The notes: generated from the sequence alone by a model not told the origin. A DNA stretch of 64,000 nucleotides from a virus (IMGVR_UViG_3300031760_000017); one strand, 5' to 3'; shown: positions 10,190 to 39,383, counted from the stretch's first letter. Program-made: numbers and translations.

Positions 10190-11014
10190 TTAAACAGTAA
10201 TATTCGTTCCGACAAGTTCATTGATTTCCTGATTGGATAATGCAACTTTATAGATTTTATAGAAATCTATTGTGCCTGACCACGGTTTAACTGTGCCACT
10301 TTCAACTATGCCAATCTTATAATTACCTACAGCGTCAGCGGTACTCGTTATAATGTCCTCTAAAGAGTAAACAAGGTCATCATCAACATAACTATGTATC
10401 AATAAGTGCTTTGAAAAGTTTCTTACTACGATAATTATATCGTGCGCAACATCCATACTAAAAGGTGTAGAGTTACCTCCAAGGTTTTTAAATGTTGTCC
10501 GTGTCATAATTTGTTCATTAGATACGGTTGTTGCAATTCTCAAGCCTGTAACGACACTTCCATTTAATCTGGATTTTGCGCTTGCGTCCAGTAGGAATGA
10601 AGCCTCAGTGGTAGGCTCCCACGTCCCCTTTATCAGGATCGTAAAATCCTCGTTATCCATATCATTTCTTGCAGGTACTCCGGTATCGACTGTAAATGCA
10701 CTCATATCTGTTCCATACGGCAACTCATAAATAACCCGGCTGTCTACACTCATGCTGAACAATGCATCTTTCAGGGCTTTGCCGTACTTCTCACCGTCCT
10801 CGGTATCCCAATATACATGCTCAAAACAGTCTATAAGGGCTGTCTTTACATTATCCGGCATAATGCTATATGCGGGAATTACAAGACCGTCTGAGCCGAT
10901 AGCAAGCACCCTCCCGGCATTTATAGCTCCCTGCTGTTTGTCAACTTTCTGACCATTTGAAATAGCTTCAATAAGTGCGTCAACCTTTGCACCTTCCCAA
11001 ATATTAACTGCCAT
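10190..11014 (-). CDS. Tail protein with a LamG/concanavalin-like domain. Standard code and GC-rich
   Basis: 274 aa. The C-terminal FYKIYKVALSNQEINEL is typical of the last LamG strand. GGAGGTG SD. ATGA overlap with the upstream gene. Confidence 0.5.
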   Translation of the reverse strand: MAVNIWEGAKVDALIEAISNGQKVDKQQGAINAGRVLAIGSDGLVIPAYSIMPDNVKTALIDCFEHVYWDTEDGEKYGKALKDALFSMSVDSRVIYELPYGTDMSAFTVDTGVPARNDMDNEDFTILIKGTWEPTTEASFLLDASAKSRLNGSVVTGLRIATTVSNEQIMTRTTFKNLGGNSTPFSMDVAHDIIIVVRNFSKHLLIHSYVDDDLVYSLEDIITSTADAVGNYKIGIVESGTVKPWSGTIDFYKIYKVALSNQEINELVGTNITV

Positions 11015-24600: not shown

Positions 24601-27263
24601 ACGGCCTTAGCTCCATTAGAAGTAATAACAGCTGCCGCTTCTGCTGTACTCTTTCTAAATTGATAATTTAAAAGATTAGTTGCTTTTCCAACAGCCCCAA
24701 TTCCTTTAATTAACATTGGTAATGAAAAAGATAAATTTGTAACAATTTGAAGTATTCTTTGTCCAGTAGATAAATCCTGATTTTTCCAAACACTTCCTAA
24801 ATGTTGAATTTGTTGAATAGAAGACCCAATTCGAGCAAGACCTGCAGCAGCTTTTGCATATTCCTCAATTCTAACAGCTCTGTCTTTATTTGACATCTCC
24901 CCATTAAAATCGTTTTGTTTTGCATTCATTTGACCGCGCAATTTCTACAATTCAGGAACAATTTTTGGATCATTATAAACCTATTTAAAAATTTTTTCTA
25001 TTTTTGTTTTAATTTCATTACCACTAGTTTCTGTTATTTCTGCTAATTTATCAAAAAAATCTTTAAATTTTTGAAAAGTTTCTTCATTTACACTTTTAGA
25101 AAATCTTTTAGGTAAATCTTCATATAATTGACCAATCTCTTCAATAGCTTTTTGAGTTTCTTTAGAAAACTATTGATTACTAGTCATTTCATCAAAAACT
25201 TCTTTAAGATCTTTTGCTCCTAATCGTAAAGTAGTAAAAAAACTTCTTATGCCATCTTGCCCTACTTTATCAAATATATTTAAAAACTTTTCAGTTGATT
25301 GAGAAACAGACTCAGTTGATTCTTGAAATTCATCATATTCTTGCTAACATTTTTCTAGCATATTTAATATTTCATCAATTTTTTCAGGCTTTCCAACAAT
25401 ATTTTCTAATTTTGTCGTACCTAACTCTTGTCCTGAAATTCTATCTATTAACTATTCTAAAGGTTGTTTTTGTTTAACTAAAGTTTGAATCTAATTTCCA
25501 ATATTAGTAATATCATTTAATAATTTTTGTGCTCCTTGAAATTCTTCTGGAGACATCATTCTTGATAGTTCTAATAAATGTTCTCTATCTTTTAATAAGC
25601 TTTTACTTACTTCATCTAATTCAGGAATTCCTTGCCAATCTTTTGTTGCTTGTAAGGCATTATCAAATTCTCTAGCATTACTATTTGCAATCTCAAGGTT
25701 AGTAATAGTTGTATTTATTCCTTTAGCAATTTGTTCACTAAAAACAGCAACCCCAATAGCTCCAAGAGATTGTAATAATGCCTTACCTCCGCCTAAGCCA
25801 TCAATAAAGTTTGCAACAAAAACTGCAACACCCGATAATGCATCAGTTATACTCTTTATAGAATCAACATCAATTAAACTATCATATACATCTTCAACGG
25901 AAGCTTTTAATTGCTTTAAATGCGCGGCAGTTGAATCCATATATATATCTTGTTGCTTTTGTAAGGTACCTGCTGCATTTTGCGCTGTATTTAATGCTTC
26001 ATTATATTCTTCAAAATTATCAAATAAAGCAAGTAAATTATTATATTGTCTTTGACCAGCCATTGTTTGAGCTAAATAAATTTGCTGTTCACGAGTTAAA
26101 TCATCCCAACGACCGCCAATTTCTTCCATAACTTCGCCCATATCACGAAGATTTCCATTCATGTCAAGAACATTAAAACCAAGTTGTGCCATTTGACTAG
26201 AATATCTACCAAGAGTAACTCCATCTTCATCAATTCCAGCTTTAATATCACTAATACGAGCATAAACAGTTCTTAAAGCTGTACCAACACTCTAAGGAGC
26301 TTGTCTTGTTGCAGAAATAATAGTTGATAACTGTGCAGCTAATTGCTATTCACTAACACCCATTGTGGCGGCCGTACTTGCAACTTTACCCATACCTTTA
26401 CTTAATTCTTCAAGATCTGATGCGGTTGTTGCAGCAACAGCAGCTAATCTATCAATATATATCTAAGCCTAATCCGCATTAACCTTATAACCATTCCAAA
26501 CGGCAGTTAACTGTTCAGAAACGTCTGCTGTTGATTGATTTGTAACATTTGCTGTTTTTAATGTAATTGCGGTTCTAGCCTAAATTTCTTTATCTGATAA
26601 ACCCTGTTGAGCATAAATTAAAGCAGCATTAGTGTAATCTACTGTTGTAGTGCCTAGTTGTTTGGCTGCATTATTGGCTTGCTCTGCAAATCTTCCCATT
26701 TCATCAGCAGTCTTACTAGTAACGATTCTAATATCATTTAATGAAGTATCTAATGATTTAACATATCCAACTGCTTGTTGAATAGTACTAGTGAAACCAC
26801 GAAATACAGTATTAGCTAAATTATATTTTGCAACATTAACAAAAGTCTAAGCAAATTTATCAAGCACTTGATGAGTTTGCTTTAATTCTGCATTAACACT
26901 TAATACATGAGACGATAAATTTCTAAAAGCATTCTCACCAACAGCACCGCTCTTAGAAAAACTTTGATAGACTTTTTCTATTGAAGTTCCAGATTCATTT
27001 AATGACTTATTAAAACTTTCAACATTTGTAGTATTTAATTTTGCATTAAAAGCAGCTCTTAATGCTTTCTATACATTTCCAGCCTATTTCTGAATTGCTA
27101 TTAAATCGGTTTTAGCTGTATCAAAATCAGAATTATTTATTTTCATCATATCTTTTATAGTTAAATTTTGAATCTCTTTTAAAGATTTTTTTAACTAATT
27201 TAAACTCTGTTTTTGAATGTCAAAACCAATAGAATAGATAATATCTCCACCCTTTTTTGCCAT
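18612..27263 (-). CDS. Tape-measure protein, TP901-like core. Giant at about 2,883 aa, TAG-recoded with about 90 in-frame TAGs
   Basis: Track ORFs 18675.., 20025.., 24447.. and 25491.. are all in one frame. The ATG at 27261-27263 has a GGAGATAAAAGG SD. The TAA stop is at 18612-18614. The core motif is LGFNVLDMNGNLRDMGEVMEEIGGRWDDLTREQQIYLAQTMAGQRQ. Confidence 0.7.
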
Positions 27264-27463
27264 CCTTTTATCTCCTTTTTATATATTTAAAATCATGTGA
27301 TAAAAAATCTTCTTCTATATATAATATAAAAAAATGACATTTTTGATTATCATAACTCGACCATATACTTTTTTCTTGATGAATTATAAAAATTTTGATA
27401 TAATTTTAATATGAAATGTAAGAAAGAATATTTAAAGTTTATAAATAATATAAGGAGGAAGAT

Positions 27464-28210
27464 ATGAGTACATATGTATTTTCAGATTTACACGCTCAAT
27501 ATAATCTTTGGAAGCAAATAAAAGATTATATTAAACCAGACGACATTGTATTTTGTCTTGGTGACTGTGTAGATAGAGGTCCAGTAGGACTTGAAATTTT
27601 ATATGAAGTAATGGAAACTCCTAATATTACTTTACTACGCGGAAATCACGAAGATTTTATTGCCACTATTGGCGAAAAGATTTTAAAATGTAAATCAGAA
27701 GAAGATGTATATTGGGAGTATCCAGATGAAATATATATATGGAAAGCTAATGGCGCTTCAAATACTATTGAAGCTTTTCAAAATTTAAGTAGAAAAGAAA
27801 AAGAAGAGTTAATAAATAAAATTAAAAAATTGCCCACTTGGGCAATATATGAAAACAAAGATAATAAATTTTATCTTTGCCATGCGGGAAGACAGCCGCA
27901 AACAACAGAACATTTAATTGAAGGACGTAGCGCAATTATTCCAATGAACAATTATATTTGGGATAGAAGTCATATTTCGGATATAGTGTGGCGAGGAGAA
28001 AAAAATGAATTTTGTATTCATGGGCATACTCCAGTATTAGCCATAGACCATTATATAAATAGATATGAATTTTTACCTAAAAAAACAGATGAAATATATA
28101 TTTATTGTAATGGTCATAAAATAGATATAGACTTAGGTTCTTTTATCACTCATCGCGTATGTCTATTTAATCTTGATACTTTTAAACCAATTTATTTTGA
28201 AGATAAATAA
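27464..28210 (+). CDS. PPP-family Ser/Thr protein phosphatase or metallophosphoesterase
   Basis: Motifs DLHAQ, GDCVDRG and GNHED. No TAG. Confidence 0.7.
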   Translation: MSTYVFSDLHAQYNLWKQIKDYIKPDDIVFCLGDCVDRGPVGLEILYEVMETPNITLLRGNHEDFIATIGEKILKCKSEEDVYWEYPDEIYIWKANGASNTIEAFQNLSRKEKEELINKIKKLPTWAIYENKDNKFYLCHAGRQPQTTEHLIEGRSAIIPMNNYIWDRSHISDIVWRGEKNEFCIHGHTPVLAIDHYINRYEFLPKKTDEIYIYCNGHKIDIDLGSFITHRVCLFNLDTFKPIYFEDK

Positions 28211-28276: not shown

Positions 28277-29851
28277 ATGATTTAGAAAATTGTAACTACT
28301 GTAATTCCAATTTTAGTACCTATTGTAATAATCGCTCTCTTATGCCTTGCAATTACCTTAATTGGTAAAGCTATGTATAAGAAATCTCCGCCAAATATGG
28401 CAATGGTTGTAACTGGACCTTTTGGAAATAAAACAATTATTGGTAAAGGTTGTTTTGTAATTCCTATTCTTGAAAGAGTAGACTTCCTTTCTCTTGAAAA
28501 TATGCAATCAGACTTTACATCTAAAGATGACATTCCTACAAAAGATGCCATCAATATTTTAGTAGATGCAGTTGCTAACTTTGCAATTTCAACTGATCCG
28601 AAGACTCTTCCAAAGGCTGCTGCAAAATTCTTAGGTAAGAAACCAAAGCAAATTGAGGAAATTGTAAGACCGGTTCTTGAAGGTAATATCCGAGAAATTA
28701 TTTCTCAAACAACTTTAAAAGAACTTATTCAAGGTGATAAAAAGAAACTTGCAGAAAGAATTATTGAAAATGTTACTCCCAATCTTCAAGATATGGGTCT
28801 TGAATTAACAACTTTTAATATTCAGAATTTCAAAGATAAAAATGGAGTAATTGATAACTTAGGTCTTCAAAACACAGTCCAAATTAGTAAAGATGCTGCT
28901 ATTTCTAAAGCAAAAGCTGAACAGGAAATTGCAGTTGCGGAAGCTAATGCGCGAAAAGCTGCTAATGAAGCTCAAATTGCTGCGGAAACTGAAATTGCAG
29001 AAAGAGAAAATAAGCTTACAATTAAAAGATCTGAATTAAAAAAGCAGGAAGATATTAAGAAAGCAGAAGCTGATGCTGCTTATGAAATTCAGCAACAGGA
29101 ACAGCAAAAAATAATCGAAATTGCAACTGCCGATGCAAAACTTGCAAGACAAGAAAAAGAAATTGATTTGCAAGAACGTGAAGTTAGTATTAGAGAGCGT
29201 AAACTTGAAGCTGAAGTTAAGAAAACGGCAGAAGCTAGAAAATACGCTGCTCAACAGGAATCTGATGCAAATCTTTATGCAACTCAAAAGAGTTCTGAAG
29301 CTGATTTATTTGAAAGACAAAAGAAAGCTGAAGCTGAACAGTATGAAGCAGAACGACGTGCGGAGGCTCAAAAAGCTAAAGCTGAGGCTGAAAAATTTGC
29401 AAAAATTCAGGAAGCAGAAGCTATTAAAGAAACTGGTACTGCGGAAGCTGAAGCTATTAAAGCTAAAGGTACCGCAGAAGCTGAGGCTATTAGAGCTAAG
29501 GCGACCGCTGAAGCTGAAGGTTTGTTAAAGAAAGCTGAAGCTATGGAAAGATATGGTGAAGCAGCTCGTGAACAGCAAAAACTTGACGCGTTAAAGATTT
29601 ACTTTGAACAGCTACCCGCAATTGCTGAAGCTATCGGTTCAGGCTATGCAAATGTTGAAAAGATGGTTATGTTCGGAGATGATTCTTCAAAATTAAGTGG
29701 TAATATCATTAATAATATTACTCAAGTTTCTGAGGGTCTTAATGAATCACTTGGTATTGATTTAAAATCTTTAATGTCTGCTTTTATCGGTGGAAAGATT
29801 GTTGATGCAAATCATACTGAAGTAACTGAAGTAACTAAAGAAGAAGAATAA
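28277..29851 (+). CDS. Flotillin (FloT/YuaG-like SPFH protein). Codon 3 is a TAG
   Basis: The strong SD AAAAAGGAG precedes the ATG at 28277. The reading is MI*K, then a TM helix, then the SPFH domain, then EA-rich flotillin repeats. It is in frame with track ORF 28373..29851, whose own Met has no SD. Confidence 0.7.
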
Positions 29852-29860
29852 TAATTTATG

Positions 29861-29913
29861 ACAAGGAGAATATAAAAATTCTCCTTGTTTTTTTTATAAA
29901 TTTTTATTATAAT
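29861..29913 (+). terminator. Composite terminator and promoter cassette
   Basis: Hairpin ACAAGGAGAAT...ATTCTCCTTGT and T-run. TTGTTT at 29885-29890 is exactly 17 bp from TATAAT at 29908-29913. Confidence 0.6.
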
Positions 29914-29945
29914 ATATTTATAAAAATGAAAAGGAAATAAAAAAT

Positions 29946-30371
29946 ATGTTATCAGATAAAGCAATGTTAGAACTATGTCGATTGTACTATGATGAAGAGA
30001 CTTTCGAACATGTAAAAAGAGTCGCTGAATATGCTAAGGATATTTATAAACTTTATGATTATTATAAAGCAGGTGAGGAAAGATCTATTTATCATTTAGC
30101 CTTAGCTCACGACTTATATGAAGATACCGATATTTCACAAAATACTTGGTTTGATAATAATTTTGAAGCCAATCTTCAATTATTAACGAAAGACGAAGAT
30201 ATATCATACAACGATTATATTGCTAAAATTCGCAAAGAAGCAGTGATACCTACTTATAAACCTGCTTATATTGTAAAATTAGCAGACATGAAAGATCATC
30301 TTTCTCAAACTGAAACTTTAACAGAAGAACTTAAAAATAAATATATTTCTGCTATGAAATATTTACTTTAA
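29946..30371 (+). CDS. HD-domain phosphohydrolase
   Basis: H...HD motif (FEHVKRV...LAHDLYED). Confidence 0.6.
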   Translation: MLSDKAMLELCRLYYDEETFEHVKRVAEYAKDIYKLYDYYKAGEERSIYHLALAHDLYEDTDISQNTWFDNNFEANLQLLTKDEDISYNDYIAKIRKEAVIPTYKPAYIVKLADMKDHLSQTETLTEELKNKYISAMKYLL

Positions 30372-30386
30372 AAAAGGAAAATAAAA

Positions 30387-30527
30387 ATGGGAATACTTGA
30401 TGTTATTCTAATTATAAATATTGTACTTAAACTTTTAAATTTAATTACCTGGAGCTGGTGGGCAGTCCTCTGGCCGCTTTGGGTAATTTTAATAATTGCT
30501 TGTCTTCTTATTTTTGGAGATGATTAA
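30387..30527 (+). CDS. Small hydrophobic peptide, 46 aa, paralog 1
   Basis: Single predicted TM helix. Shares the ...NWSW..LWPLW... motif with the next ORF. Confidence 0.4.
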   Translation: MGILDVILIINIVLKLLNLITWSWWAVLWPLWVILIIACLLIFGDD

Positions 30528-30553
30528 TATTATAAATAAAGGAGAAATAAAAA

Positions 30554-30773: not shown

Positions 30774-32741
30774 ATGGGAAGATATGATAATGAAAATTGG
30801 GACACTTCGTCTCAGATGAATAGACAGCGAGACTTGGTTCTTTCCACAAATGAATTTTGTTTCTTGCAGTCTAAAACAAATGGTGCAATTAAAACATATA
30901 CTGGTCCTATTACCATGACAATTTCCGCTCAGGAATCTCTTGTTGTCTTTAATTCTAAGACAAAGAAATTTGAGGAAACTCAGGACTTTGAAAAGGCTAA
31001 ACAGCTCTTTATTTCTGCTCCTGAAGGATGGTATGTAGTTCTAAAGAATCCTGCGGTAGACAATTCTCATCCGGAAGCCGCAAAAGCTGTCAATAGTCCT
31101 AATCTTGAAATTGGTCGCAAGATTAATATTGGTGGACCTGTTTCCTTCTCACTGTTTCCTGGACAGATGACAAGAGTTATCAGAGGACATAGACTTCGTT
31201 CTAACCAGTATCTTCTTGCTAGAGTTTATGATGCGGACGCTGCACGTAAAGGTATTACAACAGCAACTATTGTTGATACAGAAGGCAAGGAAGTTACAGC
31301 AAAACCCGAGGAATATTTCGTTGGTCAAATGATTGTTATTAAAGGAACTGAAGTTTCTTTCTACATCCCGCCAACAGGAATCGAAGTTATTCCTATCGGA
31401 AATAGTAATGAATATGTCCGTGATGCAGTTACTCTTGAAAGACTTGAATATGCAATTCTGAAAGATGAAGATGGCGAAAAAAGATATATTCATGGTCCTG
31501 CGGTGGTGTTCCCGAAACCAACTGAAACATTTGTTTCAGCTCCTAAGGGTGGACTTATTTTCCGTGCTCTTGAACTTTCACCAATTAGCGGAATTTATGT
31601 AAAAGTAATTGCCGCATACGATGAAACAAAGAATGGTAAGAAAGTTCATCATCCAATTGGAGAAGAGCTTTTTATCACAGGAAAAGACCAGATGATTTAT
31701 TATCCACGTCCGGAACATGCTATGATTCAGTATGATGGTAAGTATATGCACCATGCTATCGCAATTCCAGAAGGCGAAGGTCGTTATATTCTTAATAGAC
31801 TTAGTGGAGAAATTAAGACTATTCGCGGTCCTCAGATGTATCTACCAGACCCGCGTTATGAAGTAGTTGTTAAAAGAAAACTTACTCCTAAAGAATGCGA
31901 TTTGATGTATCCTGGTAATATGGAAGTTCTGAAATATAATGGGAACCTTACAGAAAAAGCTGTTGAAAAGATGGCTAGTAGAGGTCTTACAGGTTCTGCC
32001 GTAACAGATGCGCTTAATAATGTATATTCAACTTCTAATCAGGAAGCAACTCTTGCTATTTTTGAAGCCAATGCAAACATTTCTCGCGGCGTAAGTTATA
32101 CAAAACCGCGCACAATTACACTTGATACTAAGTACGAAGGTGTTGTTGGAATTAACGTTTGGGGCGGATATGCTATTAATGTAGTATCTAAAGCTGGTAA
32201 GAGAGATGTTGTAGTTGGTCCAACTACTCGACTTCTTGATTATGATGAAACTCTTGAAGCAGTTGAACTTTCAGGGGGTACTCCAAAGAGTTCTAAGCCA
32301 ACTGTAAGAACAGCATTTTTACAGATTGAAAATAATAGAGTTTCTGATATTATTAATGTACAGACTTCAGACTCTGTTGCTGTTGAAATTCATCTTAGCT
32401 ATTGTGTAAGTTTCTTAAAAGAATATAAAGATTCTTGGTTTGCTATTAATAATTATGTAAAATATCTGTGTGATAATATGCGTTCTCTTGTTAAGAGAGA
32501 AGTAAGAAAATATTCTATTAAAGATTTTTATGCAAAATCTACTGAAATTATTAGAAATATTGTTCTTGATACTGAAACAGAAAAAGAACTTTTTGGTAGA
32601 TTCTTTTCTGCAAACGGCATGCTTGTAAATGATGTTGACATTATCAGAGTTACTGTTGAAAGAAACTATGAGCGTCTTCTTGAAAATCATCAGGCTGAGC
32701 TTATTCAGAAGAGTATTGATTTAGCTGATGCAGAAACATAG
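30774..32741 (+). CDS. Major vault protein (MVP)-like protein: repeat domains plus an SPFH-like shoulder. It ends in TAG directly abutting the next in-frame ATG
   Basis: 655 aa. Repeat and shoulder-like regions. The stop codon TAG at 32739-32741 is immediately followed in frame by ORF 32742.. with no SD. Confidence 0.45.
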   Translation: MGRYDNENWDTSSQMNRQRDLVLSTNEFCFLQSKTNGAIKTYTGPITMTISAQESLVVFNSKTKKFEETQDFEKAKQLFISAPEGWYVVLKNPAVDNSHPEAAKAVNSPNLEIGRKINIGGPVSFSLFPGQMTRVIRGHRLRSNQYLLARVYDADAARKGITTATIVDTEGKEVTAKPEEYFVGQMIVIKGTEVSFYIPPTGIEVIPIGNSNEYVRDAVTLERLEYAILKDEDGEKRYIHGPAVVFPKPTETFVSAPKGGLIFRALELSPISGIYVKVIAAYDETKNGKKVHHPIGEELFITGKDQMIYYPRPEHAMIQYDGKYMHHAIAIPEGEGRYILNRLSGEIKTIRGPQMYLPDPRYEVVVKRKLTPKECDLMYPGNMEVLKYNGNLTEKAVEKMASRGLTGSAVTDALNNVYSTSNQEATLAIFEANANISRGVSYTKPRTITLDTKYEGVVGINVWGGYAINVVSKAGKRDVVVGPTTRLLDYDETLEAVELSGGTPKSSKPTVRTAFLQIENNRVSDIINVQTSDSVAVEIHLSYCVSFLKEYKDSWFAINNYVKYLCDNMRSLVKREVRKYSIKDFYAKSTEIIRNIVLDTETEKELFGRFFSANGMLVNDVDIIRVTVERNYERLLENHQAELIQKSIDLADAET

Positions 32742-33263
32742 ATGAAAGCTGTAAAAGACCTTGCAGAAATGAAGCGACAGAAAGCTGATATTGAAAATCA
32801 GGCTGAGCTTTATAGAATTCAGCGTCAGAAAGAGGAAGCTGAAGCTGAAATGCAGTATAAAGAAGCTATTCAGGTTAAAAAGCGTGAAGCTGAAGCTGCA
32901 GCAGCCCAGGCTAAGAAAGACCTTCAGGAAGTTCTTAATGCAATCCAGACCGCTGAAGTTGCAAGAGAAAAAGAGAAGCATGCGGCAGAAGTTGCTCATG
33001 CAAAGGAACTTGCGGAAATTGAGAAAGCTAAGCAGGAAGCTTATGCTGCAACCGTAAAAGAAATTATGAGTTCTATCTCTCCTGACCTTGTTGCCGCAAT
33101 CAGCGCTAGCTCGAAAGCAGACCTTCTTAAAGAAGGTATGAAGAATATGTCTCCTTATGCAATCGCTAATGGAGAATCTGTTGCAGATACTGTTAACAAG
33201 CTTATGAGAGGAACTTCTCTTGAAGATGTCCTTGATAAAGCTTCTCCAAAAATTAATTTCTAA
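32742..33263 (+). CDS. MVP cap-helix-like coiled-coil domain. Probably the C-terminal part of an 829-aa read-through fusion with 30774..32741
   Basis: EA-rich coiled coil followed by ...SPDLVAAISASSKADLLKEGMKNMSPYAIANGESVADTVNKLMRG. Compare human MVP ...[46 protein letters not shown]. Confidence 0.45.
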   Translation: MKAVKDLAEMKRQKADIENQAELYRIQRQKEEAEAEMQYKEAIQVKKREAEAAAAQAKKDLQEVLNAIQTAEVAREKEKHAAEVAHAKELAEIEKAKQEAYAATVKEIMSSISPDLVAAISASSKADLLKEGMKNMSPYAIANGESVADTVNKLMRGTSLEDVLDKASPKINF

Positions 33264-33276
33264 TTTTTGACTTTTC

Positions 33277-33335
33277 CTTACAAGGAAGGAATTAAAAATT
33301 CCTTCCTTGTTTTTTTATAAAAATTATTATATAAT
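33277..33335 (+). terminator. Composite terminator and promoter cassette
   Basis: Hairpin ACAAGGAAGGAAT...ATTCCTTCCTTGT. TTGTTT is exactly 17 bp from TATAAT. Confidence 0.6.
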
Positions 33336-33368: not shown

Positions 33369-33539
33369 ATGGAAATAAAAGTTCAAGTTCATTATCCTTG
33401 GGCGGATGAGCCAGATTGGTGCAAGGTTCAAATTCCTGAAAATATAAGTGAAAGTGAAATTGATAAAATTGCTTATGAATTTGTTTTAGATTTGTTATTT
33501 GACCAAGGAATTAGTTGGGATTATGAAATAATTAATTAA
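33369..33539 (+). CDS. Small hypothetical protein, 56 aa
   Basis: ATG preceded by an AAAAGGAGAAAA SD. Confidence 0.4.
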   Translation: MEIKVQVHYPWADEPDWCKVQIPENISESEIDKIAYEFVLDLLFDQGISWDYEIIN

Positions 33540-33549
33540 GGAGAAAAAA

Positions 33550-33762
33550 ATGAGAGACCCAAATAGACTTTATAAATTTTATGAAAATTTAAGAGATATA
33601 CATATGACTTATTTTCCAGATTGGAGATTTGGACAACTTATACTTAATTTCTCTGGATGGTATTACAATAAATATAAAAAAGATATTTTTTATATTGAAG
33701 ACGATACAATGATAGAAGTATTTACAGAATATCTTAATTATATAAGAAATAGTATTTTTTAA
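33550..33762 (+). CDS. Hypothetical protein, 70 aa
   Basis: ORF with GGAGAAAAAA SD. Confidence 0.4.
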   Translation: MRDPNRLYKFYENLRDIHMTYFPDWRFGQLILNFSGWYYNKYKKDIFYIEDDTMIEVFTEYLNYIRNSIF

Positions 33763-33778
33763 AAGGAGATGATAAATA

Positions 33779-35017
33779 ATGCTTAATAAAAACAATGAAA
33801 GAGAACTTGCTTATGTGGTTATTGTTGATGCAGTAACTCCAATTAAAGGTTATGATAGAGTAGAGCTTGCTCATGTGGGCGGATGGACCGTTGTAGTTGG
33901 AAAAGGCGAGTTCCATGCGGGCGACCCCGCAATTTATTTTGAAATTGATTCTCAGCTTCCTGAGGTAGAGCCATTTACTAATATGGAATTTCTTGCTAAG
34001 AAACATTATAAAATTAAAACACAGAAAATGTGTAAATCTATTTCTCAGGGGCTTCTAATGTCTGCCGCAAATTTTGGATGGAAAAAATCTGCTGAAAATG
34101 CAGGTGACTTTCCATACATCAAGGATAATGAAGGTATTTGTCATTTTACAAATGATGAGTCTCGTTTCCTTACAAAGCAGCTTAATGTAACATACGCCGT
34201 TCCAGAAGATAATGCCCGCAAAGCAAATTCTGTTGATAAATATAAGAAAATGGCACAGCGCAATGGTAAGCTTTTCTCTCATCAGCCGTTTAAATGGCTT
34301 ATGAAAAAAGAGTGGGGAAGAAAACTTCTTTTCACATTCTTTGGTAGCAAAAAGGATAAGACAGGCTGGCCCGCATGGGTAAAAAAGACAGATGAGGAAA
34401 GAATCGAAAATCTTCCATATCTGTTTGAAGATAAGTCTCCTTGGATTGCTACTGAGAAAATTGATGGGACTAGCACAACTTTCACCCTGAAACGCGGAAA
34501 AGGACTCTTTAAGAAAGATGAATTTTATATTTGTTCCCGTAACGTATGTTTCGATAGACCTAATAAAAATTGTTTCTATGAAACAAATGTTTATATTGAA
34601 ATGGCTGAAAAATATAATATTTATAATAAGATGAAGCATCTTCTTGAAACAAAATATAAAGATTGTGAATGGATTACAATTCAGGGTGAGACTTATGGAA
34701 CTGGAATTCAGAAACGTGATTACCATATGACAGAACATAATTTTATGGCTTTTAACCTGATTTCCTCTAAAAATGGAAGAGAAAATTCACTTATTATGAA
34801 AGATATTCTTGAGAAGGAAAATGGTATTCCTTGTGTTCCTATTGTAGCTGACTCTTATACACTTCCGGGCACTCTTGAAGAGCTTCGTGAGTTTGTAGAT
34901 AGTGATACTTCCGTTATTGACGGAGAAATTAGAGAAGGAATTGTATTCCGTTCCACTGACGGTTCTCGTTCTTTTAAATGTGTTTCTCCAACATATCTTA
35001 TGAAATATCATCAGTAA
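33779..35017 (+). CDS. ATP-dependent RNA ligase (Rnl-family nucleotidyltransferase)
   Basis: KxDG adenylation motif (EKIDGTS). 412 aa. Sits in a cassette with the kinase and phosphatase genes. Confidence 0.6.
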   Translation: MLNKNNERELAYVVIVDAVTPIKGYDRVELAHVGGWTVVVGKGEFHAGDPAIYFEIDSQLPEVEPFTNMEFLAKKHYKIKTQKMCKSISQGLLMSAANFGWKKSAENAGDFPYIKDNEGICHFTNDESRFLTKQLNVTYAVPEDNARKANSVDKYKKMAQRNGKLFSHQPFKWLMKKEWGRKLLFTFFGSKKDKTGWPAWVKKTDEERIENLPYLFEDKSPWIATEKIDGTSTTFTLKRGKGLFKKDEFYICSRNVCFDRPNKNCFYETNVYIEMAEKYNIYNKMKHLLETKYKDCEWITIQGETYGTGIQKRDYHMTEHNFMAFNLISSKNGRENSLIMKDILEKENGIPCVPIVADSYTLPGTLEELREFVDSDTSVIDGEIREGIVFRSTDGSRSFKCVSPTYLMKYHQ

Positions 35018-35074
35018 ATTTTAAAGGTGAGATAAAAAATCTCACCTTGTTTTTTTTATTATTTTTTGTTATAA
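35018..35074 (+). terminator. Composite terminator and promoter cassette
   Basis: Hairpin AAGGTGAGAT...ATCTCACCTT. TTGTTT is exactly 17 bp from TGTTATAAT. Confidence 0.6.
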
Positions 35075-35110
35075 TATATATAATGAAAAATAAAGAAAGG
35101 ATATAAAAAT

Positions 35111-35365
35111 ATGACGCTTAAAGAATGGCTTAAAAAAATTGATTTAGTAATAGACGTAAAAATTTGGGGAAAAGATGATGAGATACCTCTCTTTGAAGGC
35201 GCAGCTTTTGATATTCCTTGGACTATTATTGATTTTTCAATAGGCAGAATGGAGAATAGCACAGAAGAACCTATTTATATTTGCACTTATAAAAATAAAA
35301 ATAATGTGGTACTTTCAATAATTGTTATTAATGTGATAGAAAAAGAGGAGGATTTTCCATTTTGA
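35111..35365 (+). CDS. Hypothetical protein, 84 aa
   Basis: ORF with AAAGGATATAAAAAT ahead of the ATG. Confidence 0.4.
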   Translation: MTLKEWLKKIDLVIDVKIWGKDDEIPLFEGAAFDIPWTIIDFSIGRMENSTEEPIYICTYKNKNNVVLSIIVINVIEKEEDFPF

Positions 35366-35646
35366 CAACACAAATTTCAGAAATGTATTGTACTTGCTGT
35401 GGTAAAAAAGGAATATCTATTCCTAGAAAAAATAGTAAATTTAGAAAATCTGGACATTTAAAAAAATTATATTGTATTTATTGCGGAGCTGAAAAAAATC
35501 ATGTTGAAATTCGTCCTATCTATGATGACTATACTTACAAAGATTTCGAACTTGAAATGAAATATAATAATTTTGATTCAGAAGGAAATAGAAAAGAATC
35601 TTATCGAATTTTTAGAGGAAATTTAAAGAAAGCAGGTGTTATATAA
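35362..35646 (+). CDS. Zinc-ribbon protein
   Basis: CxxC...CxxC motif. Probable TTG start after AAAAGAGGAGGA. Confidence 0.4.
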   Translation: MTTQISEMYCTCCGKKGISIPRKNSKFRKSGHLKKLYCIYCGAEKNHVEIRPIYDDYTYKDFELEMKYNNFDSEGNRKESYRIFRGNLKKAGVI

Positions 35647-36146
35647 TGGGTGATTTATATATAATGTGTGGCGTTCCTGGCTCTGGCAAATCAACCTTTC
35701 TTAAAAATAGAGTAAAATCAAATAAAGGTGTTATTATTTCTCGTGATAAAATTAGATTTTCTCTTGTCAAACCAGATGAACCTTATTTTTCAAAAGAAAG
35801 AGAAGTTACAAAAACTCTTTGGGATAAAATTAATAAAGAGTTAGCATCTGGAAATACTGTTTTTGTAGACCAAACTTCTCTTACTAGAAAATCTAGAAAA
35901 TGGCTTCTTGACCATATTATTACAAACAATTGTAACCATATTAATTTAATCTGGATAGATGAAAATCTTAAAACATGTTTAGAAAGAAATGAACAAAGAA
36001 AAGGAACTCGTGGTTATGTTCCTAAAGAATCTATTGTTAATATGTATAATAACTTTGAAGAGCCTTCATTAAATGAAGGATTCTATCGAATCTTTAAATA
36101 CAATAGCACAAATGATGAGATAACTTATAAAGGAGTGATTTTATAA
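35646..36146 (+). CDS. Polynucleotide 5'-kinase (P-loop, Pnk-like)
   Basis: Walker A motif CGVPGSGKST. 166 aa. ATGA overlap with the neighbouring genes. Confidence 0.6.
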   Translation: MGDLYIMCGVPGSGKSTFLKNRVKSNKGVIISRDKIRFSLVKPDEPYFSKEREVTKTLWDKINKELASGNTVFVDQTSLTRKSRKWLLDHIITNNCNHINLIWIDENLKTCLERNEQRKGTRGYVPKESIVNMYNNFEEPSLNEGFYRIFKYNSTNDEITYKGVIL

Positions 36147-36667
36147 TGTCAAATATTTGGCTTATTTCAGATACTCATTTTAATCATAATAAAAATTTTA
36201 TTTGGAAGGCTCGCGGCTTTAATTCAGTAGAAGAAATGAATGAAACCATTATTAAAAATTGGAACGATGTGATTCAACCAGATGATGTTGTATATCATCT
36301 TGGTGATGTTATTATGGGCGAGCTTGATGCGGGCATTCCCCTTATAAAAAGACTTAATGGCAAAATTAAACTAGCAATTGGAAATCATGACACAACAATG
36401 CGCCTTGCCGCATTTAAAGAACTTTTTGATGAAATTAATTTTGGATATAGACTTAAAAAAGGTAAAAAAACCTTTCTACTTACTCATTATCCAACTCTAG
36501 TTGATAACTATGATGACCCAGTAAAAGTATATTCTATACATGGTCATACTCATTCATCAAATGCTTTTTGTGACCATCCTTTTATGTATAATGTCAACTG
36601 TGATGCACATAATTGTAAACCAATTCTTTTTGAAGAGGTAATTGAAGACATATACAGTCATAAATAA
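36146..36667 (+). CDS. Calcineurin-like metallophosphoesterase, the candidate 2',3'-phosphatase of the RNA repair cassette
   Basis: Motifs DTHFNH, GDV and GNHD. Confidence 0.6.
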   Translation: MSNIWLISDTHFNHNKNFIWKARGFNSVEEMNETIIKNWNDVIQPDDVVYHLGDVIMGELDAGIPLIKRLNGKIKLAIGNHDTTMRLAAFKELFDEINFGYRLKKGKKTFLLTHYPTLVDNYDDPVKVYSIHGHTHSSNAFCDHPFMYNVNCDAHNCKPILFEEVIEDIYSHK

Positions 36668-36705: not shown

Positions 36706-36747
36706 TAATATTCTTTAAGAGGAAACTCTTAAAGAATATTTTTTTTA
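36706..36747 (+). terminator. Rho-independent terminator immediately upstream of the holin
   Basis: AATATTCTTTAAGAGG-AAAC-TCTTAAAGAATATT followed by T8. Confidence 0.7.
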
Positions 36748-36763: not shown

Positions 36764-37015
36764 ATGAACCTGAAGGTTAGATTTAGAAATCCAATATTTA
36801 TTGCACAACTTATTTTATCAATTTTAACTCCAATTTTATCTTATGCAGGATTAACGCTCCAAGATTTAACAACTTGGGCTTCTCTTGGTAATCTCTTAAT
36901 CGGAGCACTAAGTAATCCATATGTTCTTGGTTTAATTATTGTTTCACTATGGGGCGCCCTAAATGATCCTACAACAGCAGGTATTACAGATAGTAAGCTA
37001 GCAATGACATACTAG
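36764..37015 (+). CDS. Holin (phi LC3/LL-H-like). It ends in TAG. Read-through would add 6 aa (QKPRKDN) up to TAA 37031-37033
   Basis: 83 aa with two TM segments. MNLKVRFRNPIFIAQLILSIL resembles holins of the LL-H family. GGAGG SD. Confidence 0.6.
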   Translation: MNLKVRFRNPIFIAQLILSILTPILSYAGLTLQDLTTWASLGNLLIGALSNPYVLGLIIVSLWGALNDPTTAGITDSKLAMTY

Positions 37016-37045
37016 AAACCTAGAAAAGATAATTAATTAATAAAA

Positions 37046-37080
37046 GGACAGAGAAATAAAATTCTCTGTCTTTTTATTTT
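37046..37080 (+). terminator. Rho-independent terminator
   Basis: GGACAGAGAA-ATAAAA-TTCTCTGTC followed by a T-run. Confidence 0.7.
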
Positions 37081-37097
37081 TCTAAAGGAGAATAAAA

Positions 37098-39383
37098 ATG
37101 ACATAGAAAGAATTTATTTAGAAAGTAAAAAATCCATGTATAAATGCAACAAATATAATCGGCGGTTATCTTCCCAGCGTATTAATTGGACAAATGTGTT
37201 TATAGACTGGTTACGGAACTGGATATAATTGCGAATTATTAATGCAATGGAATAATTTGCTTGGAATGAAAACTTAGTTATTAAATGACACTTGGAAATC
37301 TAAATATTGGAATGGCAAATCCGCAACTAAAAGAACTCCAGAGTATTATGGTTACCATACAACTATTACAGATTCATTCAGGGTTTATGATAATATTTAG
37401 CAATGTGCATGTGACTATTTACAATTTATGCGCGATGCTAAATATTCTAAAAACGGAAACTATAAATATAGAGATGTTTTAACAATAAAAGATCCAACTC
37501 AACTGATTACTCAAGTATCTAAACGAGGATATGCAACAGATCCAGCTTATATTACATCTGTCATGAGTATTATTAAAAAATATAACTTAACTCAATATGA
37601 TTCAAATGGAGGGAATAAACCTATGACATTAAAATAGGCATTATCAAAACTTGGTGTTAATTTAATTAATAGAATTAGTCAGAATAGAAGCCAAGTTCCT
37701 GCTCATAATGCAAATTCACACCAATATTTTGCTGTTCACTACCTTGGTGTAAATGGTTAGAATCCAGACCTATATGGCGGCGGATATGGTGGACATTTTT
37801 ACGTAAGTAAAGATGGTAAATGCTATCAAGCCGCGGAAGTAACTGATAAACTTTGGCATGTAGGTGCTTCTTCAGGATTCTCTTATATTCATTCTTATGC
37901 AAGAAATAATAATACAATAGGAGTTGAATGCGGAACTTACACAGCTTCTGGAAGAAATAATGATAATGAGACATGGTATTTTACAGAAGCCACTCAAGTA
38001 ACTGCCGCAAAATTAGCAGCAGCTGTACTTACTGTTTATAATTTACCTATGGATCATTTATTAAGACATGGGGATATTACAACTAAAAATTGTCCATCTC
38101 CATTAAAAAGAGACCAGGGTAAAGGTAGCAACTGGACTTGGGATAAATTTAAATCAGAAGTTTCTAAATATATGGCTCAATTAGGAAATGAATCCGCTCC
38201 AACTGTTACTATTCTAAAATTAGGAAGTAATGGAAAATAGGTTAAAGAATTACAAGAAAAATTATTACTTTTAGGATTTGTAGATTGTGCTTATTACAAT
38301 AAAAATAGAAATTTCGCAGATGGTGATTTTGGATAGAATACTTTAAAATCATTAAAATATTTCCAACAAGCAAAAGGATTATAGGTTGATGGTATTTATG
38401 GACCAAAAACCGCAGAAGCATTAGATAAAGCCGTTAAAGAAGCAAAAGCTTCAAAATTTGATGTTACAGTAGATGAATTTTTAAATAATGCAAAAATTAT
38501 TGCAAAAGAAAATAAAGAAAAAGGCTTTAAATATGGTAATGCTTGTTGCTTACCTTCAGTTTATCCTTTTGAAAAAATAACATCTTGTGATAGATTTGTC
38601 GATCAAGTTTTATATAAGAGTGGATTAAAAACTGTTGGTAATCGCGGTTTTACTGATTTATAGGATTGTTTAATTAATCTTAAAGCTCAAAAAATTTATC
38701 GAGAATCTTAGTTACAAAAAGGTGATATTGTATATACAATTGGACATGTATTCATTCTTGGAAACAAAATTTCTAATACTACTTATTAGAGATACGATGC
38801 AGGTTCTGTTGAAAGAATCCAATTAACTGGACCTTATGCTAGCTATAAATCTCAGCCTTTTGTTGAAGAAATTGACCTTTTCACTTTTGCTTATAGATTA
38901 CCTTTTAAAACAAAAGAAGAAAAGAAAGAAAAGACTTCAACATTTTTAAAACTTGGTGATAATAGTGCATCAGTTAAACAAATGCAAGAAAAATTAATTA
39001 AACTTGGATATTTTGTAGGCACAGCTGGTGCGGATGGCGATTTTGGTCAAAACACATTAAAAGCATTAAAATATTTTCAATCTAATCATGGATTAACCGC
39101 AGATGGATATTATGGTCCACTTGCTAAACAAAAATTAGAAAGTATCTATAATAAAATTAAAAATTATGATACACCTACTAAACATGATAATTTAATTAAA
39201 GAGAAAATTTTTACAACAACAGACAATTTAAATTTACGTAAAGGTTCTTCAATAGCACATGAAATTATACTTTAGATTCCAAAAGGAGCAAAAGTAAAGT
39301 GGTATGGTTATTATACCGGATCTTGGTATTATGTAGTTTATAATGGAAATATTGGATATGCATCTTCTCATTATTTAAAATAA
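37098..39383 (+). CDS. Multidomain endolysin, about 761 aa, TAG-recoded with about 17 in-frame TAGs. It has a glucosaminidase-like N-terminus and an amidase_2/PGRP domain. Two PG_binding_1 repeats and a CHAP/NlpC-like region follow. A C-terminal SH3 domain completes it
   Basis: A single frame joins track ORFs 37428.., 38049.. and 38982... Motifs HGDITTKNCP (amidase_2) and ADGDFG.NTLK.LKYFQ (PG_binding_1, two copies). SH3-like C-terminus. Ends in TAA. Confidence 0.7.

What the first reader, a model, noticed from the sequence alone, without database searches (positions are those of the whole stretch)
33779..36667. Split Pnkp-like RNA repair cassette (RNA ligase, Zn-ribbon, 5'-kinase, metallophosphoesterase), all standard code
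The gene order is Rnl-type ligase (KxDG), P-loop polynucleotide kinase, then calcineurin-like phosphoesterase. Together these reproduce the three activities of bacterial Pnkp and of T4 Pnk plus Rnl. Those enzymes heal tRNAs cut by host anticodon nucleases such as PrrC, RloC and colicin-like toxins. The cassette sits in the same genome as a tRNA array and possible Ro/Y-RNA genes, and it is TAG-free, so it can act early. Together these point to a coherent tRNA-protection strategy.
Basis: partly seen in the sequence, partly recalled or inferred. Interest (0 to 1): 0.65.

Follow-up and report, generated by a model that had tools for sequence, protein, structure and literature searches.

The report
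Phage RNA end-healing and sealing cassette
A stop-codon-recoded phage carries a conserved gene set (RNA ligase, RNA 5'-kinase with a small zinc-ribbon partner, phosphoesterase) that most likely mends broken RNA; this kind of system is known, but here it is built from unusual parts.

Summary
Five standard-code ORFs lie at the stated coordinates, in the stated order, with intact catalytic motifs. The "Pnkp-like" label holds only by analogy.

- **Ligase:** an Rnl5-type nick-sealing RNA ligase (N-terminal OB domain plus nucleotidyltransferase; nearest structure NgrRnl). It is not a Pnkp, T4 Rnl1, DNA-ligase or capping enzyme.
- **Kinase:** a Pnk-type 5'-OH polynucleotide kinase. Every residue essential in C. 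thermocellum Pnk is conserved.
- **Phosphoesterase:** it belongs to the uncharacterised aq_1665 clade, not the lambda-phosphatase clade of Pnkp.
- **Zn-ribbon ORF:** a dedicated kinase partner. It abuts the kinase in 34 related loci, is fused to it in at least two independent lineages, and folds like ribosomal protein bL33.
- **Related phages:** the kinase instead carries a fused HD phosphohydrolase. RlaP and Thg1-like tRNA-repair genes also join the cluster.

Best reading: an RNA end-healing and sealing module in two transcription units. The substrate is unproven. It could be host-nuclease-damaged tRNA or rRNA, or RNA/DNA nicks.

I found no Hen1, Y RNA or theta ribozyme. This is a new variant of a known kind, of moderate interest.

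The parts
33280..33310 (+). Terminator-like hairpin (14 bp stem plus T-run) that closes the upstream MVP-like gene. A TATAAT-containing AT-rich stretch follows it.
33550..33762 (+). 70-aa ORF of unknown family, conserved immediately upstream of the ligase. It is probably co-transcribed with the ligase. The 56-aa ORF at 33369-33539 in the same unit is not conserved.
   Evidence: tblastn finds it directly upstream of the ligase in 24 related loci at 38-82% identity. No Pfam or PHROG family. Strong RBS.
33779..35017 (+). Rnl5-type ATP-dependent RNA ligase: N-terminal OB domain, a conserved insert of about 60-95 aa, and a C-terminal nucleotidyltransferase domain. The predicted adenylylation site is K227.
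   Evidence: Pfam PF21189 (residues 11-94) plus PF09414 (221-402). phrog_968 RNA ligase, 1.5e-59. PDB NgrRnl 5cot, E=3e-24 over both domains. TIGR02306, 108 bits. At least 95% conserved in 52 homologues: K227, D229, G230, S253-R254-N255, Q302-G303-E304, E386-G387, F399-K400.
35024..35048 (+). Terminator-like hairpin after the ligase, followed by a TATAAT -10-like element at about 35071. It separates the ligase unit from the healing unit.
35111..35365 (+). 84-aa ORF in a variable slot between the ligase and the Zn-ribbon gene. Function unknown, and not a core part.
   Evidence: No family. Found only in 9 close relatives. In L005 the same slot also holds an RlaP nucleotidyltransferase.
35362..35646 (+). 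94-aa protein: bL33-like zinc ribbon (residues 1-55) plus a helical tail. It is a dedicated partner of the kinase.
35646..36146 (+). Stand-alone Pnk-type 5'-OH polynucleotide kinase. Its start overlaps the Zn-ribbon stop.
   Evidence: PF13671 2e-20, and phrog_505 polynucleotide kinase 7e-25. PDB: PSTK 2e-8, CthPnkp kinase domain 5e-7, Pnkp1 2e-4, T4 Pnk 8e-3. K15, S16, D34, R37, T77, R114 and R118 align with CthPnk K21, S22, D38, R41, T80, R116 and R120, whose roles are given in PMC3902929.
36146..36667 (+). aq_1665-clade binuclear metallophosphoesterase. It is the inferred 2',3'-cyclic-phosphate / 3'-phosphate end-healing enzyme. Its start overlaps the kinase stop.
36707..36740 (+). Terminator-like hairpin (15 bp stem plus T-run) that closes the healing unit. 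The holin gene follows at 36764.
   Evidence: Holin PF04531.
27464..28210 (+). Possibly associated, not shown: a second phosphoesterase of the lambda-phosphatase/PPP type, 6 kb upstream. It is an alternative 2',3'-phosphoesterase candidate.
   Evidence: PF00149 4e-14. PDB lambda phosphatase 1g5b, E=1.8e-6. PPP-type enzymes sit inside the ligase-kinase cluster in L047-L053 and L065.

Best explanation
The locus encodes an RNA end-healing and end-sealing pathway split over four proteins and two transcription units.

1. RNA cut by a metal-independent RNase carries a 2',3'-cyclic phosphate (or 3'-phosphate) on one side and a 5'-OH on the other. This is established chemistry.
2. The metallophosphoesterase (36146-36667) removes the 2',3'/3' phosphate to give a 3'-OH. 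This is inferred from gene context only.
3. The Pnk-type kinase (35646-36146) phosphorylates the 5'-OH. It works with its bL33-like zinc-ribbon partner (35362-35646), which probably supplies RNA binding or targeting. The kinase assignment rests on homology with conserved catalytic residues. The partnership is shown by gene fusions. The role of the ribbon is inferred.
4. The Rnl5-type ligase (33779-35017) is adenylylated on K227 and seals the resulting 3'-OH/5'-phosphate nick. Judging from characterised Rnl5 enzymes, the nick must be held in a duplex or a structured RNA. This is homology-level inference.

The most probable substrates are structured translation RNAs, that is host or phage tRNAs and possibly rRNA, cleaved by host defence or competitor ribonucleases. 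The phage carries about 24 tRNAs including an amber suppressor, so tRNA integrity matters to it.

The genes need no TAG decoding, so they can be translated before the code switch. The timing is inferred.
For: **Family assignments and intact active sites:**

**Operon anatomy:** two terminator-bounded units. The Zn-ribbon, kinase and phosphoesterase genes have overlapping stop and start codons.

**Conservation of order:** 34 of 58 loci down to 55% ligase identity. The kinase follows the ligase in 51 of 58. The same order appears in MAG contig L066.

**Rosetta-stone fusions:** Zn-ribbon fused to kinase in P0249, P0347 and P0348. In L062 the fusion is followed by a homologous phosphoesterase.

**Non-orthologous displacement:** in the clade with 41-44% ligase identity, the ligase is followed by a kinase fused to an HD phosphohydrolase, with no aq_1665-type enzyme nearby. 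Some phosphoesterase is therefore required next to this kinase and ligase.

**Guilt by association:**
- RlaP (PF10127) is an RNA 3'-end nucleotidyltransferase shown to act on RNA (PMC12776372). It lies beside or inside the cassette in L002, L005, L007, L019, L031, L036, L047 and L065.
- Thg1-like tRNA 5'-end repair polymerase lies beside it in L015, L019, L046-L053 and L065.

**Other points:**
- The phage has its own NAD-dependent DNA ligase (46685-48691), so this ATP-dependent ligase is not needed for replication.
- One homologue carries two inteins at catalytic motifs. This fits a selectively important enzyme.
- The composition fits the published syntax of phage RNA repair: ligase, kinase and phosphoesterase, rarely calcineurin-like or HD (PMC7824862).
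Against: - No biochemical data exist for any of the four proteins or for close homologues.
- Rnl5 ligases seal nicks in duplexes and are not known to repair anticodon-loop breaks. Their physiology is called uncharted, and the one genetic result (DraRnl) points to DNA repair after irradiation (PMC5397189).
- The phosphoesterase clade has no known activity. It occurs in 1542 cultured phage records, most of which have no match to this ligase (332 records) or this kinase (117 records) in the same searches. It therefore cannot be generally dedicated to this pathway.
- The ligase sits in a separate transcription unit from the healing genes.
- Four of the 53 loci with at least 2.5 kb of downstream sequence carry the ligase without a kinase within 3.5 kb.
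- No Hen1, anticodon-nuclease inhibitor or other tRNA-specific factor was found in this window.
Confidence: 0.6

Rival explanations
1. This is a DNA or RNA/DNA-junction repair or replication module. The kinase and phosphoesterase clean 5'-OH/3'-phosphate nicks in phage DNA, made for example by host nucleases. The Rnl5 ligase then seals nicks whose 3'-OH strand ends in ribonucleotides, such as embedded ribonucleotides or primer remnants.
For: - DraRnl and NgrRnl require RNA only at the 3'-OH side and accept DNA in the 5'-phosphate and template strands.
- The DraRnl knockout is radiation-sensitive and delays genome reassembly (PMC5397189).
- CthPnk and T4 Pnk phosphorylate DNA as well as RNA (the Michaelis complex in PMC3902929 used a DNA oligonucleotide).
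- RNase H, gyrase and NAD-dependent DNA ligase genes lie 3-12 kb downstream on the same strand.
Against: - The recurrent neighbours in relatives are RNA-specific or tRNA-specific: RlaP, and a Thg1-like enzyme.
- The cassette is not embedded in the replication module. It lies between MVP/SPFH-like genes and the lysis genes.
- The kinase's best matches are tRNA and RNA kinases: PSTK and Pnkp.
Confidence: 0.17
2. The cassette matures the phage's own RNAs rather than acting in counter-defence. It would heal, and perhaps join, ends left by self-cleaving ribozymes or other endonucleolytic processing in the large tRNA array of TAG-recoded phages. For example, it could remove the 2',3'-cyclic phosphate that an HDV-like theta ribozyme leaves on a tRNA 3' end before CCA addition.
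For: - "RNA ligase, DRB0094 family" is 140-fold enriched and present in 54.5% of theta-ribozyme-containing phage genomes, most of them recoded (PMC10879173).
- The nearest relative has a 24-tRNA array with a CTA suppressor just upstream of the window start.
- None of the four window tRNAs encodes CCA.
- A relative, L193, has a theta ribozyme abutting tRNA-Met.
- In L121 a kinase-phosphoesterase pair lies 2 kb from a suppressor tRNA, in an array that holds a theta ribozyme.
Against: - My descriptor scan recovers a published control. It finds no theta ribozyme in the window, in the 58 ligase loci, or in the 20-kb tRNA regions of the 10 contigs that carry both the ligase and the DUF2828 gene.
- Rfam finds no ribozyme in the window or in the relative's tRNA array.
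- tRNA 3'-end maturation would need the phosphoesterase but has no obvious use for a kinase or a nick-sealing ligase.
Confidence: 0.1
3. The genes are neighbours without a common pathway. The phosphoesterase is a general-purpose phage enzyme acting on nucleotides, signalling molecules or phosphoproteins. The kinase is an NTP-dependent small-molecule or protein kinase. The ligase acts alone.
For: - The phosphoesterase family is very widespread and is usually found without a match to this ligase or kinase.
- AAA_33 is a broad kinase family.
- The ligase is in a separate transcription unit.
Against: - Tight translational coupling and conserved order persist across deep divergence.
- The kinase keeps the Asp-x-x-Arg acceptor-site signature specific to polynucleotide kinases.
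- The HD-domain fusion substitutes for the phosphoesterase exactly where the latter is missing.
Confidence: 0.1

Closest known systems
[quoted passage not shown]
   Same: - N-terminal OB domain followed by a C-terminal nucleotidyltransferase domain, with no extra C-terminal module.
- All nucleotidyltransferase motifs are present, including the KxDG lysine.
- Significant similarity over both domains.
   Different: - A conserved insert of about 60-95 residues lies between the OB and catalytic domains (query 100-197 against NgrRnl 103-139).
- It scores below the TIGR02306 equivalog cut-off (108 against 151 bits).
- It is only about 27-29% identical to the annotated ligases of cultured phages.
- It is embedded in an end-healing cassette, whereas DraRnl sits in a two-gene operon without one (PMC5397189).
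Bacterial Pnkp-Hen1 RNA repair system (Clostridium thermocellum Pnkp; Capnocytophaga Pnkp1-Rnl-Hen1)
   Same: - The same three chemical activities are predicted.
- The kinase domain is homologous (E=5e-7 to 4gp7, 2e-4 to Pnkp1 4xrp), with identical catalytic residues.
- The phosphatase belongs to the same binuclear metallophosphoesterase superfamily.
   Different: - The proteins are separate rather than one polypeptide, and the gene order is ligase first.
- The ligase is Rnl5-type, not Pnkp-type.
- No Hen1 methyltransferase was found.
- There is an extra zinc-ribbon subunit.
Bacteriophage T4 Pnkp plus Rnl1 (tRNA-Lys repair against PrrC) and T4 Rnl2
   Same: - A phage-encoded heal-and-seal logic.
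- The kinase shares the P-loop and the Asp/Arg acceptor motif (T4 D35/R38).
- The ligase catalytic domain matches the Rnl2 model weakly (TIGR02307, 1.7e-8).
   Different: - T4's 3'-phosphatase is a DxDxT (HAD) domain fused to the kinase. Here it is a separate metallophosphoesterase.
- T4 Rnl1 has a tRNA-specific C-terminal domain and seals anticodon loops. The ligase here is a duplex-nick sealer type.
Kinase-HD bifunctional end-healing enzymes (phage RM378 Pnk; Runella slithyformis HD-Pnk). These are recalled from the literature and were not retrieved here.
   Same: The distant clade of this same ligase family (L046-L055, L067) pairs the ligase with a kinase fused to an HD domain. This is functionally the same healing pair.
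   Different: The window itself has no HD domain. The phosphoesterase role is taken by a separate aq_1665-type enzyme, and the kinase has a zinc-ribbon partner instead.
Modular phage RNA-repair systems catalogued by Burroughs & Aravind 2016 and Iyer et al. 2021 (PMC7824862)
   Same: It fits the described syntax: ligase, polynucleotide kinase, phosphoesterase, RlaP nucleotidyltransferase and Thg1. Calcineurin-like and HD phosphatases are noted there as rare variants.
   Different: - That survey discusses Rnl1, Rnl2 and RtcB ligases in jumbo phages.
- In the text I could read it describes neither an Rnl5-type ligase with a bL33-like zinc-ribbon-kinase pair, nor this TAG-recoded phage group of about 130-160 kb.

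Membership tests
Rnl5 RNA ligases | Signature N-terminal OB domain placed before the nucleotidyltransferase domain | tested here: met
   PF21189 at residues 11-94. Residues 8-100 align to NgrRnl 5-103.
Rnl5 RNA ligases | Covalent nucleotidyltransferase motifs I, Ia, III, IIIa, IV and V with the lysine nucleophile | tested here: met
   K227-x-D229-G230, S253-R254-N255, Q302-G303-E304, F325, E386-G387 and F399-K400 are at least 95% conserved in 52 homologues. They align to the NgrRnl motifs.
Rnl5 RNA ligases | Reaches the curated equivalog score of TIGR02306 (RNA_lig_DRB0094) | tested here: not met
   108.5 bits against a cut-off of 151.15. It is a divergent phage branch (phrog_968).
Rnl5 RNA ligases | Seals 3'-OH/5'-phosphate nicks in duplexes and requires ribonucleotides at the 3'-OH end | not testable with these tools
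   This is a biochemical property (PMC5397189).
Polynucleotide 5'-kinases (T4 Pnk / CthPnk clade) | P-loop Lys/Ser, general-base Asp with its orienting Arg, the Thr that anchors the first phosphodiester, and the lid arginines | tested here: met
   K15, S16, D34, R37, T77, R114 and R118 align with CthPnk K21, S22, D38, R41, T80, R116 and R120.
Polynucleotide 5'-kinases (T4 Pnk / CthPnk clade) | Phosphorylates 5'-OH RNA or DNA rather than nucleotides or Ser-tRNA | not testable with these tools
   The best PDB hit is PSTK (2e-8), only marginally ahead of CthPnk (5e-7). No dNMP-kinase hit appears.
Bacterial Pnkp-Hen1 system | Kinase, phosphatase and ligase in one polypeptide, in that order | tested here: not met
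   Four separate ORFs with the ligase first.
Bacterial Pnkp-Hen1 system | Phosphatase module of the lambda-phosphatase-like clade | tested here: not met
Bacterial Pnkp-Hen1 system | Hen1 2'-O-methyltransferase partner | tested here: inconclusive
   No methyltransferase appears among 28 window ORFs scanned with Pfam. Not every ORF of the window was scanned, and the rest of the genome was not examined.
Binuclear metallophosphoesterase superfamily | Five metal-binding motifs: DxH, GD, GNH[D/E], H, GHxH | tested here: met
   D9, H11, D54, N80, H81, H114, H134 and H136 are invariant in 29 sequences. The fold is confirmed.
Ribosomal protein bL33 (for the Zn-ribbon ORF) | Detectable sequence homology to bL33 (PF00471) | tested here: not met

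The most novel reading that the evidence does not exclude
The bL33-like zinc-ribbon protein is an obligate RNA-targeting or ribosome-targeting subunit of a phage polynucleotide kinase. Together with an Rnl5 ligase and an aq_1665-type phosphoesterase, it would form a previously undescribed four-component RNA repair machine.

If true, this would give:
- the first physiological role for Rnl5 ligases in viruses;
- the first activity (RNA 2',3'-end healing) for a phosphoesterase family present in more than 1500 sequenced phages;
- an explanation for why DRB0094-family ligases are strongly enriched in stop-codon-recoded gut phages, namely to safeguard the tRNA pool, including the suppressor tRNA, on which the code switch depends.
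Probability: 0.2. Interest if true: 0.65.

Novelty: new variant of a known kind. Interest (0 to 1): 0.42.

Why it matters
Phage RNA repair is understood mainly from T4 (Pnkp plus Rnl1 against the PrrC anticodon nuclease). It is otherwise known from genome surveys.

This locus shows the same logic built from different parts:
- a nick-sealing Rnl5 ligase whose biology is an acknowledged open question;
- a kinase that has acquired a ribosomal-protein-like zinc-ribbon partner;
- a phosphoesterase clade of unknown function that is common in phages.

The parts are exchanged with HD, PPP, RlaP and Thg1 modules across a large group of uncultured TAG-recoded phages of about 130-160 kb.

The locus offers testable candidates for the substrate of Rnl5 enzymes and for the function of the aq_1665 family. 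It also gives a rationale for the reported enrichment of DRB0094-type ligases in recoded phages. It does not reveal a new principle.

Tried and rejected
1. **Y RNA / Ro.** Rfam finds only tRNAs in the window, at gathering threshold and at E<=1. The ORF next to the tRNAs is DUF2828+DUF7788 and has no hit to solved structures. The Ro/Y-RNA claim is not supported.

2. **Theta (HDV-like) ribozymes as an endogenous source of 2',3'-cyclic-phosphate ends.**
   - My own descriptor was validated on a published sequence.
   - It found none in the window or the 58 ligase loci. It found none in the tRNA regions of the 10 contigs that carry both the ligase and the DUF2828 gene. It found hits in 8 of the 80 loci around DUF2828 homologues.
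   - A capped scan of the viral collection gave no overlap with ligase-bearing contigs, which is inconclusive.

3. **Hen1, RtcB, RlaP and Thg1 in the window.** No RlaP or Thg1 by tblastn. None of the four appeared among the ORFs scanned with Pfam.

4. **Kinase-phosphoesterase fusion P0425.** It proved to be a chimeric half-and-half sequence on an 848-bp contig, so I discarded it as an artefact.

5. **Sequence-level homology of the zinc ribbon to bL33.** Not significant. I kept it as a fold resemblance only.

6. **Phage Phass-1, a published code-15 phage.** It shares only the phosphoesterase, without a kinase-sized ORF beside it in the stretch viewed (14.5 kb around the match), and no ligase match in that record. 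It is not a close relative.

7. **Literature on aq_1665.** Nothing functional was found.

8. **Burroughs & Aravind 2016.** The paper could not be retrieved. What I say about SPFH/Band-7 scaffolds in that paper comes from memory.


Full report
**Observation**

The + strand between 33779 and 36667 holds five ORFs:
- a 412-aa ligase (33779-35017);
- an 84-aa ORF (35111-35365);
- a 94-aa four-cysteine protein (35362-35646);
- a 166-aa P-loop kinase (35646-36146);
- a 173-aa metallophosphoesterase (36146-36667).

Pfam, PHROGs and NCBIfam give these assignments:
- Ligase: PF21189 plus PF09414, phrog_968 "RNA ligase", and TIGR02306.
- Kinase: PF13671/KTI12 and phrog_505 "polynucleotide kinase". It also matches the PSTK, bacterial Pnkp and PNK-3'Pase models in part.
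- Phosphoesterase: PF12850/PF00149 and phrog_547.

The window comes from a TAG-recoded phage. Treating TAG as sense fuses fragmented ORFs into long genes, for example 18612-27278(-) with 71 in-frame TAGs and the lysin-like gene 37086-39383 with 14. The five cassette ORFs have no TAG and end in TAA or TGA. About half of the window's genes, including gyrase, helicase and NAD-dependent DNA ligase, are also TAG-free.

**Anatomy**

Terminator-like hairpins at 33280-33310, 35024-35048 and 36707-36740 bracket two units.
- Unit 1 holds two small ORFs and the ligase. The 70-aa ORF (33550-33762) is conserved next to the ligase in 24 loci.
- Unit 2 holds orf84, the Zn-ribbon gene, the kinase and the phosphoesterase. 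The last three have overlapping stop and start codons.
- A holin (PF04531) and a TAG-rich lysin follow.

**What each protein is**

*Ligase.* It matches NgrRnl (PDB 5cot) at E=3e-24 over both the N-terminal OB domain and the nucleotidyltransferase domain. DNA ligases appear only at E=0.23. Motifs I to V are at least 95% conserved in 52 homologues, including K227. It is therefore an Rnl5-type ligase. It differs from the characterised members in two ways. It has a conserved insert between the domains. It scores below the DRB0094 equivalog cut-off. Rnl5 enzymes seal duplex nicks whose 3'-OH strand is RNA. Their physiology is described as uncharted, and DraRnl is implicated in recovery from irradiation (PMC5397189).

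*Kinase.* It aligns with the CthPnkp kinase domain, Pnkp1 and T4 Pnk, and slightly better with PSTK. It conserves every residue shown to be essential or substrate-contacting in CthPnk: K21, S22, D38, R41, T80, R116 and R120 correspond to K15, S16, D34, R37, T77, R114 and R118 (PMC3902929).

*Zinc-ribbon protein.*
- It has no Pfam or NCBIfam family.
- A profile search finds 683 cluster representatives, nearly all small stand-alone proteins.
- Three of them (P0249, P0347, P0348) are N-terminal Zn-ribbon fusions to an AAA_33/KTI12-type kinase. In L062 the fusion is followed by a homologous phosphoesterase.
- Sequence-level support for bL33 is not significant.

**Comparative genomics**

The ligase recovers 58 viral loci, on contigs of up to 168 kb, the longest mostly 115-168 kb.
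- Order: ligase, Zn-ribbon, kinase, phosphoesterase is kept in 34 loci (ligase identity 55-97%). The median gaps are 5 nt and 15 nt.
- A kinase follows the ligase within 3.5 kb in 51 of 58.
- In the divergent clade (41-44% identity; L046-L055, and L067 from a MAG) the kinase is fused to a C-terminal HD domain, and no aq_1665-type enzyme is nearby. This non-orthologous displacement is the strongest argument that the phosphoesterase supplies the 3'-end-healing activity.
- Relatives also place RlaP (PF10127), a Thg1-like polymerase (PF04446) and a PPP-type phosphatase beside or inside the cluster. RlaP has been shown experimentally to extend RNA 3' ends in a tRNA-repair setting (PMC12776372).
- The window itself lacks RlaP and Thg1. 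In the 90%-identical relative L002, RlaP replaces window segment 29936-30552.
- Cultured phages show looser versions, for example Bacillus phages KLEB27-3 and Izhevsk. The ligase is under 30% identical to any cultured-phage protein.
- MAG contigs carrying the cassette are binned with Clostridia or Bacillales. That is only a weak hint about the host.

**Interpretation**

The evidence supports an RNA end-healing and sealing cassette. It fits the published modular syntax of phage RNA repair, in which calcineurin-like and HD phosphatases are rare alternatives to HAD and 2H enzymes (PMC7824862).

It is not a split Pnkp in the sense of homology. Only the kinase is related to Pnkp. The ligase and phosphatase belong to other clades, and no Hen1 was seen.

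The substrate remains inferred. tRNA is favoured for two reasons: the Thg1-like and RlaP neighbours, and the phage's investment in tRNAs. The nearest relative has a 24-tRNA array with a CTA suppressor just upstream of the window start. However, Rnl5 enzymes need a duplex nick, so the T4-style anticodon-loop model cannot simply be transferred.

**Alternatives**

- A DNA or RNA-DNA nick repair role cannot be excluded, given DraRnl genetics.
- A role in maturing ribozyme-processed phage tRNAs was suggested by the 140-fold enrichment of DRB0094-family ligases in theta-ribozyme phages (PMC10879173). Locus L121 also places a kinase-phosphoesterase pair 2 kb from a suppressor tRNA, in an array that holds a theta ribozyme. 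Against this, a validated descriptor scan found no theta ribozyme in the window or the ligase loci. It also found none in the tRNA regions of ten contigs carrying this ligase. Rfam found no ribozyme either.
- The phosphoesterase family occurs in 1542 cultured-phage records. This ligase and this kinase were matched in only 332 and 117 records. Its assignment here rests on local context alone.

**Verdict**

The cassette is a new variant of a known kind. Its most original element is the bL33-like zinc-ribbon partner of the kinase. Interest is moderate.

Noticed in passing
window 30774-33263 (+): The MVP-like gene (Vault_3 plus MVP shoulder/SPFH) ends in TAG at 32739-32741. It is followed in frame, with no gap, by a 173-aa ORF. 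It is probably one protein of about 829 aa read through a recoded TAG. MVP-like genes lie upstream of the ligase in 9 related loci.
   Followed up: partly
window 28373-29851 (+); L034:7399-8301: A flotillin/Band-7 (SPFH) protein lies in the same + strand block. Another SPFH protein directly follows the ligase in L034. SPFH/MVP-type proteins recur beside this ligase. From memory, such proteins have been proposed as RNA-repair scaffolds.
   Followed up: partly
window 27464-28210 (+): A second phosphoesterase, lambda-phosphatase/PPP-like (PDB 1g5b, E=1.8e-6). This is the clade to which the Pnkp phosphatase belongs. PPP-type enzymes sit inside the ligase-kinase cluster in L047-L053 and L065.
   Followed up: partly
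window 29936-30552 versus L002:2123-2945: A variable gene slot. The window has a 141-aa ORF with no family hit (29946-30371). The 90%-identical relatives L002 and L041 have an RlaP nucleotidyltransferase at the same place.
   Followed up: yes
L058:5992-9351: A homologue of the ligase is 1119 aa long because it carries two inteins with LAGLIDADG-type endonuclease domains. One follows the KTDEER motif. The other lies inside motif I (KLDG|C...).
   Followed up: no
window 1-1460; L191:1-10000: The window's four tRNAs are the tail of a 24-tRNA array seen in the nearest relative, which includes tRNA(CTA) at L191:4931-5004. None of the four tRNAs encodes CCA. The window has GC-rich, structured-looking spacers (469-948 and 1021-1161) and a sub-threshold tRNA-like element at 326-387 (Rfam 25.6 bits). 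The adjacent ORF 1464-3014 is DUF2828+DUF7788.
   Followed up: partly
L193:2146-2202: A canonical theta (HDV-like) ribozyme match starts exactly at the 3' end of tRNA-Met (2073-2146). The contig's DUF2828 protein is 81% identical to the window's. Seven other related loci also have matches.
   Followed up: partly
L121:2588-5872 (-): In another recoded phage, a kinase (3362-3847) and an aq_1665-type phosphoesterase (2588-3268) lie 2 kb from a suppressor tRNA(CTA). The tRNA array there holds a theta ribozyme (10502-10532). No Zn-ribbon or ligase was detected in the 14.5 kb held.
   Followed up: partly
window 29872-29935, about 35020-35100, and 60278-60322: A repeated intergenic element, about 82% identical to the post-ligase spacer of L002. 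It occurs at three or more gene boundaries and may be a phage terminator/promoter module.
   Followed up: no
window 36764-39383 (+): The holin gene ends in TAG, and the following lysin-like gene has 14 in-frame TAGs. The lysis genes therefore depend on the code switch, while the adjacent repair cassette does not.
   Followed up: partly
window 8913-10181 (-); 60337-60789 (+): A CotH-family kinase homologue and a T4 gp30.3-family protein (PF08010) are encoded elsewhere in the window.
   Followed up: no
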